Shown here in pieces: positions 4,362 through 47,863 of a DNA stretch of 54,512 nt. The position numbers and the translations under genes were made by a program. Every line of letters begins with the position of its first letter. Position 1 is the stretch's first letter. Origin of the DNA: Candidatus Sericytochromatia bacterium. GTDB lineage: Bacteria > Cyanobacteriota > Sericytochromatia > S15B-MN24 > UBA4093. The stretch covers positions 1 to 54,512 of the forward strand of contig JAKFCT010000037.1 in the NCBI GenBank assembly GCA_036676495.1, in the 5' to 3' direction. The notes under the pieces were generated by a model. It worked only from the letters and a program-made list of their open reading frames with translations, had not been told where the DNA came from and did not search any database.

Positions 4362-6116
4362 CTACTCGATCGTCAGATCCAGGCGGCCGTCGTCGGTCAC
4401 CTCGATGGGGATCGTGGTCTGAGCGGTGCTGTTGCCCACCCACATGAGCGTGATCGTGCCAGAGCCCACCTGGGAGCCCGCCGTGACGACGCCGACGCCG
4501 TACGTGGAGCTGTCCCATTGCGAGCCGGATTTCTTCGTCACGGTGGCGAGGGAGGGAAGGTCGATGGTCCAGTGGAACTTCGACTGAAGATCGGACTTCT
4601 CCCTCGGATTGACGAGGGTGCCGTCGGTGAGCTTCACGCTCGCGGCGACCTCGGTCGTCTCGTTGGCCCGAAGCTTGATCACGGGCGTGGGGAAGGTGAA
4701 GCCCTGGATCCCCACGTTCATCAGGGTGAAGCTGAAGGACTTGGTCGGATCGAGCTTGAGGGTGCCCGTGACGGTGGTCTGTCCGGGGATTCCCGTCCCG
4801 TACAGCTGGATGTTGGGCTGGTTCTGGTTCCAGTCGCTCGAGAGGTAAGGAATCGTGCCGATCGACGGGTTCGAGAAGGTCCAGGTGTAGTCCGAGGGGC
4901 GCAGCCAGACGGACGACACGCCCCCATCGACGATCATCTGGGCGGGAAGCGAGACGTCGACGGATTGGTAGTGCCCCGTCAACTCGTAGAAGTTCGAGAC
5001 CTTGACCATGGCCGGGGCGGTGTTGAACCAGTTCAGGGTCCCGGCGACGATCGGGAACTCGGACTTCCACTGGGTCCCCGCGCTGACCTCCAGGGTGTAG
5101 TTGCCGATGCTCGGAAGCGTGATCCGACCGTCGCTCCCCACGGCGCCCGGCACCTCGAGGCCGTCCTTGAGGACCTTGATGCGGTGCTCGAAGCTCTCCA
5201 CGCGACGCGCCTCTCCGGTCTGCGGGTCGGAGTACTCGCCCTTCATGAGCAGCGGAAACGGCTTGCCGGCCAGGGCATGGTAGTAGGTCGCCCAGTTCGA
5301 CGGATTCTGCCTGGTCGGCAGGGCGGGGAGCTCCACCGAGAGGCCGCCGAGGTAGCAGAAGTCCAACTCGTTGGCCGAGATACCGTCCACGTAGAGGCGA
5401 AGCTTCACGAGACCGCCCGTATAGGCGTCCGGCATGACCACGGTGACCTCGGTGCCCTCGGAGTTGAGCGCCTCGATCGTGGCCGGGAACGGGGCATAGC
5501 CCTCCCGGAGAACGACGGCGCGAATCTTGCTGCGATCGGTTCCAAAGTTGACGCCCGTGATCCGGATCCGGCTGCCCACGGCGCCTGCGGCATGACTGAG
5601 GGCCGTGGCCTGCGGGCCGTTCGGCACGGCGAGGCTGATCCGCACCGGAGTCCGGTAGCCGGAGCGCACCTCGAAGGGGCTGGACGTGCCCGCGGCGACC
5701 TGGGTCGCCTCGCTGAGGTCGGTCTCGCTGCTGAAGGCCTTGACCTCCAGGGAATACCCCGTGCCCGGAGGCAGGTCGAAGCGGACCACGCTGGTCGCAA
5801 TCCCGTTCCCATCTTCGTGCCAGGTCGCTTCGCTGCGCTTGAGCACCTTCTCCTCCACCGGATCCGAGCCCTTCTTCAGCGTCAACTTGAAGGCCCGGGT
5901 GCTCAAGGGCAAGGCGGCGAGGTTATAGCCCTGGCGCATGCCATCCGGCCAGCGAATGGTCAGCGAGACGGTTCCCGTGGCCTGGGGGATCTTTGCTCCT
6001 TCGGTCTGCGCTCCTCCGGTCTCCGGCGTCGACGGCTGAATGGGGGCCAGGCTCTGGCAGCCCAAAAGGCTCAAGGAAAGGCAGGTGGCCAATACGAGGC
6101 GGTTAGAATTCGTCAT
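4362..6116 (-). CDS. Lipoprotein with IPT/TIG and Ig-like domains; paralog of 2501-4348
   Basis: Lipobox LLGC; GTVSLTIRWP; IRITGVNFG; C-terminal GRLDLTIE; start chosen from GAAGGTGA SD. Confidence 0.75.
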   Translation of the reverse strand: MTNSNRLVLATCLSLSLLGCQSLAPIQPSTPETGGAQTEGAKIPQATGTVSLTIRWPDGMRQGYNLAALPLSTRAFKLTLKKGSDPVEEKVLKRSEATWHEDGNGIATSVVRFDLPPGTGYSLEVKAFSSETDLSEATQVAAGTSSPFEVRSGYRTPVRISLAVPNGPQATALSHAAGAVGSRIRITGVNFGTDRSKIRAVVLREGYAPFPATIEALNSEGTEVTVVMPDAYTGGLVKLRLYVDGISANELDFCYLGGLSVELPALPTRQNPSNWATYYHALAGKPFPLLMKGEYSDPQTGEARRVESFEHRIKVLKDGLEVPGAVGSDGRITLPSIGNYTLEVSAGTQWKSEFPIVAGTLNWFNTAPAMVKVSNFYELTGHYQSVDVSLPAQMIVDGGVSSVWLRPSDYTWTFSNPSIGTIPYLSSDWNQNQPNIQLYGTGIPGQTTVTGTLKLDPTKSFSFTLMNVGIQGFTFPTPVIKLRANETTEVAASVKLTDGTLVNPREKSDLQSKFHWTIDLPSLATVTKKSGSQWDSSTYGVGVVTAGSQVGSGTITLMWVGNSTAQTTIPIEVTDDGRLDLTIE

Positions 6117-6127
6117 CATGCTCACCT

Positions 6128-6796
6128 TCACTCGATCACGACGTCAACGGATCCGAAGTCCAGGACCTCGATGGTGGCCGTCGCGACGAGGTTGGGGTCC
6201 TTGGTGGACTCCACCTTGAGCGCATAGGATCCGGGCACTGCGTCGGGCTTGGTGACCAGCATGAAGCCGGACTGGTGATACGGGTAGGGGGCCAGCTCGA
6301 GCCCCGCGGGGATCGTCCATTTCCACTCGGAACTCTCAGGCGTCACGTTGTAGTTCGCCCCCCAGCGGTAGGAGGCATAGACCATGACCGTGGCCTCGTC
6401 CAGGGCCTGGAGATCGGGAATAGGCACGCCCTCGGGGTAGCCGTCCGCAGAGGGGTGAAACACGCTCGGAGAGGCGGTCCGCGGGTCAAAGCCCAGCCTG
6501 ACGCGGTACGTGGAGCGATTCAAGCTCACCGACACGGGATCGTTGTAGTCCGAGGTCGAGGTAGGGCCGGGGTACGGGTAGTAGCTGGAGGGGGATGGGC
6601 CGGGATTGTAGTAGGAGGACGGTGAAGTGCTCGGGTACGGGTAGGGGCCTCCGACCTTCACGTCGGCGCCGAGTTTGGCATCCACGTTGTTGCCGTTACC
6701 GATGTTCGAGAAGTTGACGTCCGACAAGTTCAAATTGCAGCCCGCCATCACGCTGGCCAACATGACCGCTTGAAGCGCCCAGAGCCTCTTCCTCAT
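6128..6796 (-). CDS. Lipoprotein with Pro/Tyr/Ser linker and one Ig-like domain
   Basis: ATG 6796 after GAAGGGAGA; lipobox MAGC; PYPYPSTSPSSYY linker; C-terminal GSVDVVIE. Confidence 0.75.
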   Translation of the reverse strand: MRKRLWALQAVMLASVMAGCNLNLSDVNFSNIGNGNNVDAKLGADVKVGGPYPYPSTSPSSYYNPGPSPSSYYPYPGPTSTSDYNDPVSVSLNRSTYRVRLGFDPRTASPSVFHPSADGYPEGVPIPDLQALDEATVMVYASYRWGANYNVTPESSEWKWTIPAGLELAPYPYHQSGFMLVTKPDAVPGSYALKVESTKDPNLVATATIEVLDFGSVDVVIE

Positions 6797-21379: not shown

Positions 21380-21451
21380 TTGTCCCCCCTTGCTCACGCA
21401 ATGCGCAACTGCGCCCGCAGGCGCAAGGGGGGACAATTAGAGGAAGATTAG
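21380..21451. repeat. Solo/degenerate end of the palindromic element family (copy C)
   Basis: ttgtccccccttgc...gcaaggggggacaa hairpin; caaggggggacaattagaggaagatt identical to 30374-30399. Confidence 0.8.
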
Positions 21452-21726
21452 AAGGGGAAGACGATGGTCGCGATGAACATCCCCACGGCCAGCGTGGAGA
21501 GGATCCGGTACTGGACCTGTTTCTCCGGCTTGATCATGGGCTTGTCGAAGAGCCACTGGTAGATCGGAGGCCCGATCAGGAGCACGGTGGTCACCCCGAT
21601 GAGGGCGGTCTGCTCCAGAGAGAGGTCGGGATGGGCCATGCCCAGCACGATCCGGATCAGCATCGTGGCGAGCAGAATCGAGATGATGTAGGCTTGGCCG
21701 CGCGCCTTTTCGTCGAACATAAACAT
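21448..21726 (-). CDS. Small membrane protein (about 3 TM helices)
   Basis: Three hydrophobic stretches in 92 aa. Confidence 0.7.
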   Translation of the reverse strand: MFMFDEKARGQAYIISILLATMLIRIVLGMAHPDLSLEQTALIGVTTVLLIGPPIYQWLFDKPMIKPEKQVQYRILSTLAVGMFIATIVFPF

Positions 21727-30229: not shown

Positions 30230-30401
30230 TAATCTTCCCTATCTTGCCCCCCTCGACGGGGGGGCGGGGCGAAGCCCCGGGGGGTGTTTGCCGGCGAAGC
30301 CATGGTGTTCCTCGTTATTAGGAACCTGGGAGCAGTAACACCCCCCTGCCGGCTACGCCGGCCGTCCCCCCGTCAAGGGGGGACAATTAGAGGAAGATTT
30401 A
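30230..30401 (-). mobile_element. Gene-less MITE/REPIN-like copy (B) of the DUF559 element
   Basis: Reverse complement aligns with both arms at 46212-46290 and 46665-46750; terminal ATCTTCC/GGAAGAT inverted repeats flanked by TA. Confidence 0.85.
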
Positions 30402-45700: not shown

Positions 45701-46225
45701 ATGCTGAAGAAGCCCAACCCGTTCAAAGCCAAGCAGGAACTCGCCAAGGCCAAGCCCGCGGCTAAAGAAGAAGGAAACGTCATCGACCTGACGACGGCTC
45801 CTCCCCGCAGCCCCTTCGAGATGCTCAACGGCTACGTCTTCCTGCCCCGCCTCATCGACAAGGCCCGCGCCCACCTCAGCGAGAAACTGGGAAGCTACAC
45901 CTACGGCAAGCCCGGCAGCCTGGACGCCTTCTTCTTCACCCAGCACGGCCTCAGCGCCGACGAGTTCGCCAAGGCCGTCCGCGCCGCCGGATCCGACCAG
46001 GAGGTCGTGACCTGGTTCAGCATGCGGACCAAGATCAAGACCCCCAACGCCATCAAGGAATACAACCGGAAGTTCGCCTCGCTCGCCCCGTCGAGCGCCG
46101 AGTCGGTCAAGGCCTTCATGGTGCACGTGAAGCAGGTCGTGCCGCCGGAGCAGGCGGATCGGATCAAGACCTGGTTCCAGCTGCTGGACGCCGACGAAGG
46201 CCGCCTGGATCTGATCGTCCGCTAA
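45701..46225 (+). CDS. DUF5069-like protein
   Basis: DLT..PPRSP...L.GYVFLPRLIDKARA...LG.Y; TWF.LLDADEGR. Confidence 0.75.
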   Translation: MLKKPNPFKAKQELAKAKPAAKEEGNVIDLTTAPPRSPFEMLNGYVFLPRLIDKARAHLSEKLGSYTYGKPGSLDAFFFTQHGLSADEFAKAVRAAGSDQEVVTWFSMRTKIKTPNAIKEYNRKFASLAPSSAESVKAFMVHVKQVVPPEQADRIKTWFQLLDADEGRLDLIVR

Positions 46226-46750
46226 ATGTCCCCCCTCGATGGGGGGACCGGCGAAGCCGAGGGGGGTGTTACTGCTCCCAGGTTCCTTATGAAAGGAGGC
46301 CTCCCTTGCGCTTTCATCAAAGAACCAGCCGAAACACCACCAAGTTACGAAACACCATGACCGATGCCGAGCAAAAGCTCTGGTACTTCCTTCAACGCGA
46401 GAACCTGGGGTGCAAATTCCGGCGCCAGGTCCCCCTTGGTCGCTACATCGTGGACTTTGCATCCCTGGAGAACGGTCTCATCATCGAAGTGGATGGTGGG
46501 CAGCATGCCGGAAATACCCAGGATATGCAGAGGGATTCCTGGCTCCAGGAACAAGGCTACCGCGTGCTGAGATTCTGGAATCATGACGTGCTTCAGAATA
46601 CCGAAGGTGTCTTAACACGCATCCGAGAAACGCTACAGGGCCAGGAATAAGCTCACGCATTCGACAAGGAACGCCATGGCTGCGCCGGCTAACACCCCCC
46701 GGGGCTTCGCCCCGCCCCCCCATCGAGGGGGGGCAAGATAGGGAAGATTA
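46212..46750 (+). mobile_element. Palindromic-armed element (copy A) carrying a DUF559 nuclease gene
   Basis: Both arms match the gene-less copy at 30230-30401; ggggggtgtt/aacacccccc and gttcctt/aaggaac pair across the gene. Confidence 0.75.
46306..46650 (+). CDS. DUF559 / Vsr-like endonuclease domain protein
   Basis: AAAGGAGG SD then TTG; LR..MTDAE.KLW..L, KFRRQ, YIVDF, IIEVDGGQH, RD.WL...GY.VLRFWN; visibly more AT-rich than neighbours. Confidence 0.93.
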   Translation: MRFHQRTSRNTTKLRNTMTDAEQKLWYFLQRENLGCKFRRQVPLGRYIVDFASLENGLIIEVDGGQHAGNTQDMQRDSWLQEQGYRVLRFWNHDVLQNTEGVLTRIRETLQGQE

Positions 46751-47863
46751 GAAGGCCTTGGAGAACGGCCTCACCGATCCCCGATGCACCGAGAAGATCT
46801 CGGCGGCGTCGATCCAGTCGGCGGTGAAATCGCTGAGGTGCGTCGAGGTCACGAAGGTCTGAACCTCCCCCCCGATGGCCGCCAGAAGCGCGTTCTGGCG
46901 GCGGATGTCCAGCTCGGCCAGGACGTCGTCCAACAAGAGCAACGGCGACTCGCCGGACTCCTGGCGAAAGACGTCGAGCTCGGCGAGCTTCAAGGCCAGG
47001 ACCACCGTCCGCTGCTGGCCCTGAGAGGCGAAGGCCTTCGCCTCATGCCCGTCGATCGCCAGGTCCAAATCGTCCCGGTGCGGGCCGGCCAGGGTCTGCC
47101 CCCGCGCGATCTCCTTGCCCCTGCCTTCCTGCAGCTGCATGAGCAGCGATCGCTCCCAGTCCTCTCCCTCCAGCCGCTCCAGAGCCGGCAAGAGCCGCAT
47201 CGAGAGGGTCTCGTGCCCGGAGGAGATCTCCGCATGCCAGAAGCGCGCCCGCTCCGCGAGCGCCTCCACCAGCGCGCGCCGCTTGCGCCAGATCTCGGCG
47301 CCGTAGCGTGCCAGCTGCATGTCCCAGATCTCCAGGCTCTCCGGGGAAACTCCCTCGGAGATCGCCCGCAGCGCGTTGTTGCGCTGCAAGAGCACCCGCT
47401 GGTAGTTCTGGTGGGCCTGGTAATAGGTCGGAGAGAGCTGGACCAAGATGCCGTCCATGTAGCGCCGCCGATGCGCGGGCGAGCCCTTCACGAGCTGGAG
47501 ATCCTCCCCCGAGAAGAGCACGATCATGACCGTCCCCAGCAGGTCCGCGAAGCGGCGCTGGTAGATCCCGTTGATCCGGATGGCCCGCCGGCCGCCGGCG
47601 CGGAAGAGCAGATCCACGGCCGTCGTCCCCAGCTCGCGCTCCACCTCGCTCCGGATGATGGCCTGCTCGGTGTTCCAGCGGATCAGCTCCGCCTCCTTCG
47701 CGGCGAAGGGCGACTGGCCCGTGGCCAGGATCGCGATCGCCTCCAACAAGTTGGTCTTCCCCTGGGCGTTATCCCCGAGGAAGATCACCGATTGGCGATG
47801 GAACTGCACGTCGAGTTCCGCGTAGGATCGGAAGTTGCTGAGGTTTAGCGAACGTAGAAACAC
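46748..47863 (-). CDS. recF: DNA replication/repair protein RecF
   Basis: NFRSY, GDNAQGKTNLLEAI, GPHRDDL, SQGQQR, LLLDDVLAELD. Confidence 0.97.
   Translation of the reverse strand: MFLRSLNLSNFRSYAELDVQFHRQSVIFLGDNAQGKTNLLEAIAILATGQSPFAAKEAELIRWNTEQAIIRSEVERELGTTAVDLLFRAGGRRAIRINGIYQRRFADLLGTVMIVLFSGEDLQLVKGSPAHRRRYMDGILVQLSPTYYQAHQNYQRVLLQRNNALRAISEGVSPESLEIWDMQLARYGAEIWRKRRALVEALAERARFWHAEISSGHETLSMRLLPALERLEGEDWERSLLMQLQEGRGKEIARGQTLAGPHRDDLDLAIDGHEAKAFASQGQQRTVVLALKLAELDVFRQESGESPLLLLDDVLAELDIRRQNALLAAIGGEVQTFVTSTHLSDFTADWIDAAEIFSVHRGSVRPFSKAF

What the first reader, a model, noticed from the sequence alone, without database searches (positions are those of the whole stretch)
46212..46750. 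Minimal mobile element whose only gene is a DUF559/Vsr-like nuclease
Seen: a 114-aa, AT-richer DUF559 gene with its own SD sits in the loop of a large foldback: terminal ATCTTCC-like/GGAAGAT repeats, sub-terminal C6-N5-G6 hairpins, GCGAAGC mini-hairpins, and stems ggggggtgtt/aacacccccc and gttcctt/aaggaac that close exactly around the gene. The same arms occur without the gene at 30230-30401. Known: autonomous/non-autonomous pairs define IS-MITE and RAYT-REPIN systems, but those use DDE or HUH enzymes; GCGAAGC is an exceptionally stable ssDNA hairpin. Inferred: a PD-(D/E)XK Vsr-like nuclease acts as mobiliser of a REP-like family. Palindromes near DUF559 genes may have been noticed before; I know of no demonstrated mechanism.
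Basis: partly seen in the sequence, partly recalled or inferred. Interest (0 to 1): 0.9.

Follow-up and report, generated by a model that had tools for sequence, protein, structure and literature searches.

The report
DUF559 nuclease inside triplex-motif palindromic repeat
A small Vsr-like nuclease gene sits in the middle of one copy of a folded DNA repeat that occurs about 25 more times without the gene, and the same pairing of this nuclease family with "BoxC/triplex-motif" repeats recurs across many bacteria, which may give these long-unexplained repeats a partner enzyme.

Summary
A 114-aa DUF559 gene (46306-46650) lies in the centre of a composite palindrome (about 46212-46752). Both arms recur without the gene at 30230-30401. 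The genome holds 27 loci of this repeat but one DUF559 gene. Its only RAYT-like gene carries a different repeat, and no larger element shares the termini.

The pattern is general. In 65 of 76 DUF559 loci from many phyla the gene is bracketed by inverted repeats (controls 5 of 144). The arms share one plan: pyrimidine arm, loop, purine arm, then a mirror purine block. That plan is the published BoxC/PIT/"TM" intrastrand-triplex motif. The one paper on that motif that I read names no enzyme partner.

The arms flanking the gene were a genome-wide repeat family in 6 of 6 cases tested. In 401 Gammaproteobacteria-class genomes DUF559 was found in 28 of 33 repeat-rich, 38 of 71 repeat-poor and 55 of 296 repeat-free genomes.

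Gene-less copies are insertion-polymorphic between congeners (3 of 3 sites), and the gene sits at different loci in two congeners.

My best reading is a RAYT/REPIN-like nuclease-plus-repeat system. That the nuclease is the mobiliser is inferred, not shown. A homing-type reading remains open.

The parts
46212..46227 (+). Degenerate left terminus of the gene-bearing element. It overlaps the last codons and the TAA stop (46223-46225) of the upstream DUF5069 gene (45701-46225).
   Evidence: (I1); compared with the termini of other copies
46228..46270 (+). Left arm triplex-type module: C-arm 46228-46235, loop 46236-40, G-arm 46241-46248, GCGAAGC-type mini-hairpin spacer 46249-46259, second G block plus TGTT 46260-46270.
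   Evidence: I12, I2; motif detector positive
46271..46288 (+). Inner left arm, ending in GTTCCTT (46282-46288), the word that abuts the gene cassette. The 17-nt inner-arm word recurs 22 times in the genome.
   Evidence: (I24)
46292..46650 (+). DUF559 / EDxHD Vsr-like nuclease gene with its own Shine-Dalgarno (46292-46299), TTG start at 46306 and TAA stop at 46648-46650. 114 aa, GC 0.533.
46666..46690 (+). Inner right arm, beginning with AAGGAAC (46666-46672). The 23-nt word recurs 20 times in the genome.
   Evidence: (I24)
46691..46734 (+). Right arm triplex-type module in mirror order: AACACCCCCC 46691-46700, mini-hairpin 46701-46713, C-arm 46714-46721, loop, G-arm 46727-46734.
   Evidence: (I13, I2)
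46735..46752 (+). Right terminus (...GGAAGATTA). Its last three bases are the stop codon of recF (46748-47863, minus strand). It is conserved at this site in both congeners.
30230..30401 (-). Gene-less copy of the same element in the opposite orientation, with a 7-nt loop (30313-30319) in place of the gene. It is absent at the orthologous site of both congeneric genomes.
21409..21452 (+). Fragment: the right terminus and G-arm of the element fused to a different short palindromic repeat.

Best explanation
The locus is the single gene-bearing ("master") copy of a two-component system: a small DUF559/EDxHD Vsr-like nuclease plus a family of composite palindromic repeats. Each repeat arm is a BoxC/PIT/TM-type module made of a pyrimidine arm, a loop, a purine arm and a second mirror purine block.

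Proposed working (inferred):
1. When an arm is single-stranded or extruded, it folds into a hairpin that can take up the third block, as published in vitro work shows for the E. coli motif.
2. The nuclease recognises this folded arm and nicks or cuts it.
3. Repair that uses other copies as template copies arms, as singlets or doublets, into new intergenic sites. Those sites lie next to stop or start codons and already resemble the termini.
4. The same repair keeps the family homogeneous.
5. Rarely the gene cassette is copied too, or is lost from the centre of a doublet.

In architecture it works like RAYT/REPIN, but with a different enzyme class and a different DNA fold.

Shown: the anatomy, the copy numbers, the insertion polymorphism, the cross-phylum association and the co-occurrence. 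Inferred: every enzymatic step.
For: 1. Anatomy and folding at the stated coordinates.

2. Copy numbers in this genome. There are 27 loci: 1 with the gene, 20 of 110 nt or more, and 6 fragments. DUF559 is found once.

3. No other mobiliser shares the ends. The only Y1_Tnp hit is flanked by a different repeat with 38 hits. Of 21 matches to the 17-nt terminus, 18 adjoin the hairpin and none bounds a larger unit.

4. Generality.
- A bracketing inverted repeat scoring 30 or more is present in 65 of 76 DUF559 loci, against 5 of 144 displaced controls.
- The three-block motif lies on both sides in 46 of 74 loci, on one side in 20 and on neither in 8, against 2 of 138 controls.
- Orientation is biased: 52 against 13 upstream and 53 against 24 downstream, of 76.
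- The mirror copy fits better than a direct copy in 35 loci against 7.

5. The arms flanking the gene are a genome-wide family in 6 of 6 gene copies tested: G000, G001 43 matches (25), G005 117 (26), G003 78 (72), a Gemmatales genome 103 (41) and an Arenicellales genome 113 (42). The arm sequences differ between genomes.

6. Co-occurrence.
- Among 41 relatives, 8 genomes have 5 or more matches to the C6-type pattern and 6 of these have DUF559; the GC-rich kin without the gene otherwise have 0-2 matches.
- Among 401 class-level genomes, DUF559 is found in 28 of 33 with 10 or more pattern copies, 38 of 71 with 1-9 and 55 of 296 with none.

7. Mobility. Three of 3 gene-less copies are missing at the orthologous sites of G002 (3 of 3) and of G001 (2 clean). 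The gene-bearing copy lies at different loci in G000 and G001.

8. In G005, singlet arms end exactly at the word that abuts the gene, as REP units flank a RAYT.

9. The invariant E61, D63, H67 and D73 residues are present, and a solved homologue, 3HRL, matches at E 1.1e-24.
Against: - No enzymatic step was tested. A single-domain PD-(D/E)XK nuclease cannot by itself join DNA.
- No direct target duplication or clean insertion junction was seen. At the 3 empty sites, 4-21 nt differ from the filled allele.
- Repeat-rich genomes without a stand-alone DUF559 exist. G006 has 71 pattern matches, with only a weak partial domain inside a 1666-aa ORF (87% complete, 610 contigs). G002 has 6 matches (85% complete). 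Five of 33 repeat-rich Gammaproteobacteria-class genomes also lack it.
- In E. coli, ycjD is in 3378 of 5426 complete genomes, but one BoxC variant is in 5148. The repeats therefore persist without the gene.
- DUF559 also occurs in 55 of 296 genomes without this pattern. Other arm types were not counted.
- Kin are not independent, and no phylogenetic correction was made.
- Arm class follows the protein tree (11 changes against 18.6 in shuffles, 0 of 500 shuffles as low), but host class does too. Within Alphaproteobacteria the signal is weak (5 against 7.0; 45 of 500).
- At the recF site the element is old and only the gene content varies. That fits gene homing or gene loss as well as it fits this reading.
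Confidence: 0.5

Rival explanations
1. Free-standing homing endonuclease. The DUF559 gene is a selfish cassette that colonises the central loop of pre-existing palindromic doublets. Its product cuts gene-less doublets, and repair from the occupied copy, with the arms as homology, copies the gene in. The repeats themselves spread by some other, unknown route.
For: - The gene occupies exactly the loop between GTTCCT and AGGAAC that is 5-8 nt long in gene-less copies.
- At the orthologous DUF5069-recF site the outer element is conserved in three congeners, but only G000 has the gene.
- The gene is at another locus in G001.
- DUF559 is placed in the EDxHD homing-endonuclease family in a passage of PMC9403480, and it shares a table row with a group I intron homing endonuclease in PMC3424549.
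- Distribution is patchy: 11 of 41 relatives.
Against: - Only 1 of 21 doublet-size copies is occupied in this genome. Copy number is 1-2 in most genomes. Efficient homing would fill the targets.
- The G001 gene-less copy keeps about 28 nt identical to the 3' end region of G001's own cassette. That points to gene loss rather than a never-occupied target.
- Singlet arms that end at the gene junction, and repeat abundance that rises with gene presence, need a further explanation under this reading.
- No other mobiliser for the repeats was found.
Confidence: 0.22
2. The arms serve the gene or the host rather than mobility. In one version the inverted arms make the cassette an invertible or structurally gated switch; the purine block often lies where a Shine-Dalgarno would be. 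In the other version DUF559 is a host nuclease that processes hairpin or triplex structures which block replication, and it merely co-evolves with repeats that spread independently.
For: - The end of the second purine block lies a median 9 nt from the approximate ORF start in 57 loci.
- DUF559 proteins are enriched among predicted inversion targets, odds ratio 14.3, in a table of PMC9881135.
- PIT elements block DNA polymerase in vitro, as stated in the introduction of PMC4666352.
- A Caulobacter DUF559 protein causes an SOS response when a methyltransferase is missing (PMC12907096 passage). A chromosomal housekeeping role is therefore possible.
Against: - It does not explain why the flanking arms are near-identical to dozens of gene-less copies in 6 of 6 cases.
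- It does not explain why gene-less copies are insertion-polymorphic.
- In this window the gene has its own Shine-Dalgarno 40 nt inside the purine block.
- The same paper reports no promoter, terminator or expression effect of PIT elements.
Confidence: 0.15
3. Ordinary MITE with cargo. The repeats are non-autonomous derivatives of a DDE or HUH transposon, and DUF559 is an occasional passenger.
For: Terminal inverted repeats and a foldback shape resemble MITEs. A RAYT-like gene exists in the genome. The assembly is 91.9% complete in 106 contigs, so a transposase could be unassembled.
Against: - The RAYT-like gene has different flanking repeats.
- No larger unit carries the termini.
- No target duplication was seen.
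- The gene is bracketed in the same oriented way in 46 of 74 loci from many phyla, with differing arm sequences. That is not occasional cargo.
Confidence: 0.04

Closest known systems
RAYT / REPIN (REP-associated tyrosine transposase with its repetitive extragenic palindromes)
   Same: A single-copy enzyme gene is flanked by inverted copies of a short palindromic repeat that also occurs as dispersed gene-less singlets and inverted doublets. Repeat sequences are specific to each genome. There is no target duplication. This genome has such a RAYT system in parallel.
   Different: The enzyme is a DUF559/EDxHD PD-(D/E)XK nuclease, not an HUH Y1 transposase. The repeat unit is a three-block pyrimidine/purine/purine module, not a GTAG- or CGTC-tagged hairpin. 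Distribution is patchy. The mechanism is unknown.
BoxC / PIT elements / TM (TM_ECO) intrastrand triplex motifs (Holder et al. 2015, PMC4666352; I read the abstract, sections 15 and 18, and find-passages)
   Same: The block order is the same (class II C-G-G on one strand, C-C-G on the other). The copies are intergenic, multi-copy and found as inverted pairs. The motif occurs in more than 260 genomes. The arms of 66 of 74 DUF559 loci fit this plan on at least one side. E. coli K-12 ycjD (DUF559) ends in such an arm and has a TM_ECO copy about 170 nt downstream.
   Different: That paper's main text reports that no mobility activity was found near the motifs. It has no occurrence of endonuclease, DUF or ycjD. 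I could not see its supplementary gene tables. In this window the second spacer is an 11-13-nt mini-hairpin, longer than the 1-6-nt loops of their definition, and the blocks are plain C6/G6 runs.
EDxHD / Vsr-like homing endonucleases (I-Bth0305I type), and Vsr itself
   Same: They share the nuclease fold family and conserved residues. The homing enzymes are also selfish genes with patchy distribution.
   Different: The known members sit in introns or inteins and carry extra DNA-binding regions (recalled, not tested here). This gene is free-standing, 114 aa, and embedded in a repeat family. Vsr is a T:G mismatch repair nickase linked to a cytosine methyltransferase; I examined only the two flanking genes.
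IS/MITE pairs and IS200/IS605 peel-and-paste elements
   Same: They are autonomous/non-autonomous pairs with foldback ends. IS200/IS605 elements also recognise subterminal hairpins and make no target duplication.
   Different: No DDE or HUH enzyme carries these ends. The nuclease class here has no known covalent intermediate.

Membership tests
DUF559 / EDxHD Vsr-like PD-(D/E)XK nuclease | Full-length match to Pfam PF04480 above the curated cut-off | tested here: met
   E 1.8e-37, 128 bits against a cut-off of 20.6, residues 7-110 of 114
DUF559 / EDxHD Vsr-like PD-(D/E)XK nuclease | Conserved E, D, H, D residues of the family | tested here: met
   E61, D63, H67 and D73 are invariant in an alignment of 25 homologues that includes the window protein. 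The motif name comes from a passage in PMC9403480. Catalytic roles were not tested.
DUF559 / EDxHD Vsr-like PD-(D/E)XK nuclease | Sequence relation to a solved member | tested here: met
   3HRL 'endonuclease-like protein', E 1.1e-24, query 16-112. No fold was predicted here.
RAYT / REPIN system | The enzyme is an HUH Y1 (tyrosine) transposase | tested here: not met
   The gene is DUF559. The genome's one Y1_Tnp hit lies on another contig with a different repeat.
RAYT / REPIN system | A single-copy gene flanked by inverted copies of a repeat that is dispersed gene-less as singlets and doublets | tested here: met
   1 gene-bearing copy among 27 loci. The same holds in 5 other genomes.
RAYT / REPIN system | Long vertical persistence of gene and repeats in a lineage | tested here: inconclusive
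   The G000 and G001 genes are 78% identical in DNA, close to the flanking genes at 80-82%, but they lie at different loci. The gene is found in 11 of 41 relatives.
BoxC / PIT / TM intrastrand triplex motif | Three consecutive blocks: pyrimidine arm, complementary purine arm, then a mirror purine block | tested here: met
   Window 46228-46270 and 46691-46734. Among 77 other DUF559 loci, 68 have a pyrimidine/purine hairpin upstream and 46 of these 68 have a mirror block at 85% or more.
BoxC / PIT / TM intrastrand triplex motif | Loops of 1-6 nt, the ITxF search definition in PMC4666352 section 15 | tested here: not met
   In the window the second spacer is an 11-13-nt mini-hairpin. The same-genus G001 copy has a 2-nt spacer.
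BoxC / PIT / TM intrastrand triplex motif | The strand actually folds into a triplex | not testable with these tools
   ViennaRNA has no triplex terms. In vitro evidence exists only for the E. coli motif.
IS / MITE pair | A transposase-bearing element with the same terminal inverted repeats | tested here: not met
   Of 21 matches to the 17-nt terminus, none bounds a larger unit. The assembly is 91.9% complete.
IS / MITE pair | Direct target-site duplication | tested here: not met
   None is evident at the 3 filled/empty site comparisons.
Free-standing homing endonuclease gene | Gene present or absent within otherwise conserved flanks at one orthologous site | tested here: met
   DUF5069-recF site: G000 has the gene, G001 has a gene-less full element, G002 has a half element.
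Free-standing homing endonuclease gene | The product cuts the empty allele, and occupancy spreads among targets | tested here: inconclusive
   1 of 21 doublet-size copies is occupied. Cleavage is not testable here.

The most novel reading that the evidence does not exclude
DUF559/YcjD-type nucleases are the missing partner enzymes of the BoxC/PIT/TM intrastrand-triplex repeats found in hundreds of bacterial genomes, E. coli K-12 included. On this reading a Vsr-like nuclease recognises a folded hairpin-plus-third-strand DNA and spreads that fold, and occasionally its own gene, by break-induced copying. That would be a transposase-free class of mobile DNA defined by a non-B DNA structure.
Probability: 0.35. 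Interest if true: 0.9.

Novelty: new variant of a known kind. Interest (0 to 1): 0.8.

Why it matters
BoxC/PIT/TM repeats have been catalogued since the 1990s without a function or a mobilising enzyme. The 2015 survey states that no transposase or integrase was ever found near them.

DUF559 is a very large family: 1768 relatives at E 1e-10 or better in one search. Apart from one Caulobacter Vsr-like protein and the intron/intein homing enzymes, I found no assigned role.

If the two belong together, several things follow. Both puzzles are addressed at once. RAYT/REPIN gains an independent analogue with a different enzyme and a non-B DNA fold. The idea also becomes directly testable in E. coli K-12 through ycjD and its 23 TM_ECO copies.

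There is a practical side as well. Many homologues sit on contigs of about 1 kb and repeat matches lie at contig ends, so these repeats probably break assemblies.

Tried and rejected
- Rfam: nothing reached threshold. There were only weak Whalefall-1 matches on both arms (18.9 and 17.5 bits against a gathering score of 37) and none at 13 related loci. I did not pursue an RNA-family reading.

- Arm/protein co-phylogeny: arm class clusters on the protein tree, but so does host class, and within Alphaproteobacteria the signal is weak. In one search I mislabelled the main class and repeated the count. I treat the result as inconclusive.

- Target duplication: none was found. G002's empty sites carry pyrimidine words like the element's terminus next to stop or start codons. 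I could not decide whether these are preferred targets or footprints.

- G-quadruplex reading of the purine blocks: considered. The published NMR favours a triplex for the E. coli motif. The window's two G6 runs are poor quadruplex formers.

- RNA evidence: no RNA holder was listed for the locus.

- Literature. Searches for DUF559, 'very short patch repair' with 'repetitive extragenic palindromic' (34, 0 papers), COG2852 (44), REPIN+RAYT+endonuclease (45), mirror repeat/triplex terms (47) and ycjD (55) turned up no paper that links DUF559 to these repeats.
  - Read as find-passages: PMC3424549, PMC12907096, PMC3733652, PMC12817139, PMC1189080, PMC9403480, PMC9881135.
  - PMC4666352: outline and abstract, sections 15 and 18, and passages.
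  - Other papers were seen only as search listings. Hoyne and Maher 2000/2002, Taylor 2011 and the 1990s BoxC papers were not read; I know them from citations or recall.
Subscription journals are not covered.

- E. coli: a hint that strains differ in BoxC places per genome (1 against 3-5) could not be cross-tabulated with ycjD presence.
Full report
**1. The observation**

The window holds a 114-aa ORF at 46306-46650. It has a TTG start and AAAGGAGG seven bases upstream. It matches Pfam DUF559 at E 1.8e-37. The same-genus homologue has ATG at the same place, which supports this start over the internal ATG used by a gene caller. The gene has GC 0.533 in a window of GC 0.664.

The gene lies between a DUF5069 gene (45701-46225) and recF (46748-47863, minus strand).
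- C6-N5-G6 hairpins at 46228-46248 and 46714-46734;
- GCGAAGC-type mini-hairpins at 46249-46259 and 46701-46713;
- GGGGGGTGTT pairing with AACACCCCCC;
- GTTCCTT pairing with AAGGAAC, 17 nt before the start and 15 nt after the stop;
- a clear right terminus ending in GGAAGATTA, whose last three bases are the recF stop codon.

The left terminus is degenerate where it overlaps the end of the DUF5069 gene.

The copy at 30230-30401 is the same element in the other orientation, with a 7-nt loop instead of the gene. Folded as single-stranded DNA, both copies beat all shuffles (z -7.41 and -7.37).

**2. The family in this genome**

The assembly is 4.14 Mb in 106 contigs, GC 0.659 and 91.9% complete. 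BLAST with the arms gives 27 merged loci: the gene-bearing one, 20 of 110 nt or more, and 6 fragments. DUF559 is found once, both by tblastn and by the Pfam profile.

The only Y1_Tnp (RAYT-like) hit is a 160-aa ORF on another contig. It is flanked by a different hairpin repeat that has 38 hits of its own, against 0 for the reversed control.

Of 21 matches to the 17-nt terminus (3 mismatches or fewer; reversed control 2), 18 adjoin the C6-N5-G6 hairpin, 3 look like chance, and none bounds a larger unit. This genome therefore carries two parallel enzyme-plus-repeat systems, one of them the known RAYT kind.

**3. Relatives**

The protein is found in 11 of 41 related genomes, counting the window's own. 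The element's DNA is found in 4 of the 41: G000, G001, G002 and G005. In the relatives' loci, even in AT-rich genomes, the gene is again bracketed by C-run/G-run hairpins.

The arms that flank the gene were then used to search the genome they came from. They recur genome-wide in G001 (43 matches), G005 (117, a different arm sequence, many as doublets about 75 nt apart), G003 (78, second paralogue), a Gemmatales genome (103) and an Arenicellales genome (113). These match counts include the query's own locus and both-strand double counts.

With G000, that is 6 of 6 gene copies tested. In G005, singlet arms end exactly at the inner word that abuts the gene.

**4. The general pattern**

A profile scan of one genome per species returned 568 confirmed relatives among 600 candidate stretches, and 80 loci were kept. 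They come from Alpha-, Beta-, Gamma- and Deltaproteobacteria, candidate phyla radiation lineages, Chlamydiota, Omnitrophota, Planctomycetota, Sericytochromatia and others.
- A local alignment of the upstream flank against the reverse complement of the downstream flank scores 30 or more in 65 of 76 usable loci, against 5 of 144 displaced controls.
- Reading the flanks shows one plan. Upstream lies a pyrimidine arm, a short loop, the complementary purine arm, a spacer and a second purine block, and the mirror order follows the gene. The spacer is either 1-3 nt or a GAA-loop mini-hairpin.
- Sixty-eight of 77 loci have the hairpin upstream, and in 46 of these 68 the next block matches the mirror image of the purine arm at 85% or more. 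Among arms that are not self-symmetric, the mirror fits better in 35 and a direct copy in 7.
- With a stricter detector the motif lies on both sides in 46 of 74 loci, upstream only in 11, downstream only in 9 and on neither side in 8. Displaced controls give 2 of 138.
- Orientation is biased as the plan predicts: 52 against 13 upstream and 53 against 24 downstream, of 76.
- Many homologues have C-terminal tails that are simply the translated arm.

**5. What is known**

A mirror purine repeat next to its own hairpin is the signature of an intrastrand triplex. A literature search on those terms found Holder et al. 2015 (PMC4666352).

That paper describes these as BoxC / PIT / "TM" motifs: class II C-G-G on one strand and C-C-G on the other. 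The 37-nt E. coli motif occurs 23 times in K-12, with five inverted pairs, and related motifs occur in more than 260 genomes. CD and NMR show a triplex for the isolated strand, while the duplex form stays B-DNA.

The authors state that they never found transposases or integrases nearby. The main text has no occurrence of endonuclease, DUF or ycjD. I could not see its supplements.

In E. coli K-12 the DUF559 gene ycjD lies between sapF and fabI. Its 3' end runs into a degenerate pyrimidine arm. A duplicated fragment of its 3' end and an intact TM_ECO copy follow within about 170 nt. The upstream side has an unrelated hairpin.

A 2026 paper notes that ycjD occupies, in phylogroups A, B1 and C, the place where other E. 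coli carry the eef operon. A survey of predicted inversions lists DUF559 proteins as enriched targets with an odds ratio of 14.3, which fits genes bracketed by inverted repeats. Another paper's passage places DUF559 in the EDxHD homing-endonuclease family.

None of the seven searches found a paper that links DUF559 to these repeats.

**6. Co-occurrence**

Among the 41 relatives, the pattern C6-N3-8-G6-N1-20-G6 gives the following match counts:

| Genome | Matches |
|---|---|
| G000 | 38 |
| G001 | 134 |
| G003 | 170 |
| G006 | 71 |
| G027 | 34 |
| G005 | 10 |
| G002 | 6 |
| G010 | 5 |
| G008 | 2 |
| G019 | 1 |
| the other 31 genomes | 0 |

The reversed control is about 0 except in G018. Six of the 8 genomes with 5 or more matches have DUF559. 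The exceptions are G006 and G002, assemblies that are 87% and 85% complete. There the Pfam profile finds only a weak partial domain inside ORFs of about 1600 aa. Five DUF559-positive relatives have other arm types and no match.

In an independent sample of 401 genomes of the class of the Arenicellales genome, I searched a TCT-type three-block pattern, whose reversed control gave 0 everywhere, and the Pfam family. My hand count of the two tables agrees with the tools' tallies of 104 and 121.

| Pattern copies | Genomes | With DUF559 |
|---|---|---|
| 10 or more | 33 | 28 |
| 1-9 | 71 | 38 |
| 0 | 296 | 55 |

One genome was unscored. Three unpublished genomes are inside these counts, and leaving them out changes little. 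Kin are not independent and I made no phylogenetic correction.

Against a strict dependence: in E. coli, ycjD is in 3378 of 5426 complete genomes, while one BoxC variant is found in 5148.

**7. Mobility**

Three gene-less copies of G000 were compared with the two congeners. These were window 30230-30401 and two copies on another contig. All three are missing at the orthologous site in G002. Two are cleanly missing in G001, and the third site holds 71 nt of other sequence.

G002 is the closer genome by flank identity. Insertion in the G000 lineage is therefore the simplest reading.

The junctions show no direct duplication. Instead, 4-21 nt differ, and the G002 empty sites carry terminus-like pyrimidine words next to stop or start codons.

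At the DUF5069-recF site the story differs. The right terminus, including the recF stop, is conserved in all three genomes. G000 has the gene. G001 has a full gene-less element whose inner right arm is the same about 28 nt that end G001's own cassette. G002 has one arm only.

G001's gene lies on another contig, at a site that carries no such element in G000. The two genes are 78% identical in DNA, like their neighbours at 80-82%. The gene has thus stayed in the genus while changing place.

**8. How it most likely works**

The data show a gene and a repeat family that travel together, with recent turnover of gene-less copies and slower relocation or loss of the gene. I favour a RAYT/REPIN-like two-component system. 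In it the nuclease acts on folded arms, and repair copies arms, and rarely the cassette, to new sites (confidence 0.5). Every enzymatic step is inferred.

The main rival is a free-standing homing gene that colonises doublet centres (0.22). It has a precedent in the same enzyme family and fits the recF site. It does not explain single occupancy among about 20 doublets, nor the rise of repeat number with gene presence.

A switch or structure-processing role (0.15) and an ordinary MITE with cargo (0.04) fit less of the evidence. The remainder is left open.

The arm-versus-protein tree test could not separate co-evolution from host phylogeny.

**9. Verdict**

The mobiliser claim is plausible but unproven. 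The association is testable in E. coli K-12.

Noticed in passing
G000 contig C48 about 5933-6415 (L001 1324-1806): A 160-aa RAYT-like Y1_Tnp ORF, also AT-richer to the eye. It is flanked on both sides by its own hairpin repeat, which has 38 hits in the genome. This is a classical RAYT/REPIN system running in parallel with the DUF559 one.
   Followed up: partly
G000 contig C67 15674-15881 (L162): One copy of the element carries about 70 nt of other sequence in the same central loop where the DUF559 gene sits. The insert includes a hairpin whose start resembles the gene's 5' leader. It may be a decayed cassette or a second cargo.
   Followed up: no
window 21409-21452; also G000 C34, C67, C28, C33, C76: A second short palindromic repeat (a GCGCC..GGCGC-type hairpin) is fused to pieces of the element, giving BIME-like mosaics. 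Its word count was no higher than the reversed control (5 against 6), so the family is not established.
   Followed up: partly
L145 (E. coli K-12 NC_000913 1351040-1351830): The ycjD 3' end runs into a degenerate pyrimidine arm. It is followed by a duplicated fragment of the ycjD 3' end and an intact BoxC/TM_ECO copy. ycjD is in 3378 of 5426 complete E. coli genomes, and the BoxC variant is in 5148.
   Followed up: partly
L052, L064, L065, L084, L086 and E. coli (L145): In TCT-type arms the pyrimidine arm often reads TCG where the purine arm reads AGA. This gives a recurrent G-A mismatch in the hairpin. It may be relevant for a nuclease family related to a mismatch nickase.
   Followed up: no
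window 46226-46268 (+) and 46703-46736 (-): There are weak Rfam Whalefall-1 matches on both arms (18.9 and 17.5 bits; gathering score 37). That orphan motif might be a relative of these arms.
   Followed up: no
L017 596-882 (G036): A DUF559 gene lies about 450 nt from a CRISPR-like array: five repeats at 30.6-33.8 bits for CRISPR-DR43, just under the gathering score of 35.
   Followed up: no
L035 about 1380-1560 and 2030-2090 (G001 contig C30): The gene-bearing element of G001 is flanked by two other tandem repeat families: a roughly 22-nt unit upstream and a 15-nt unit (3.5 copies) downstream.
   Followed up: no
G003: This genome has two DUF559 paralogues and at least two abundant three-block repeat families with different loops. 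Many doublets are in the outward-facing order (mirror blocks outside), unlike the window's family.
   Followed up: partly
G002 C108, G006 C608, G004 C11 (L185, L182, L183): Weak partial DUF559 matches (profile positions 55-108) lie at the end of ORFs of about 1600 aa. This is a fused form of the domain in relatives that lack the small gene.
   Followed up: no
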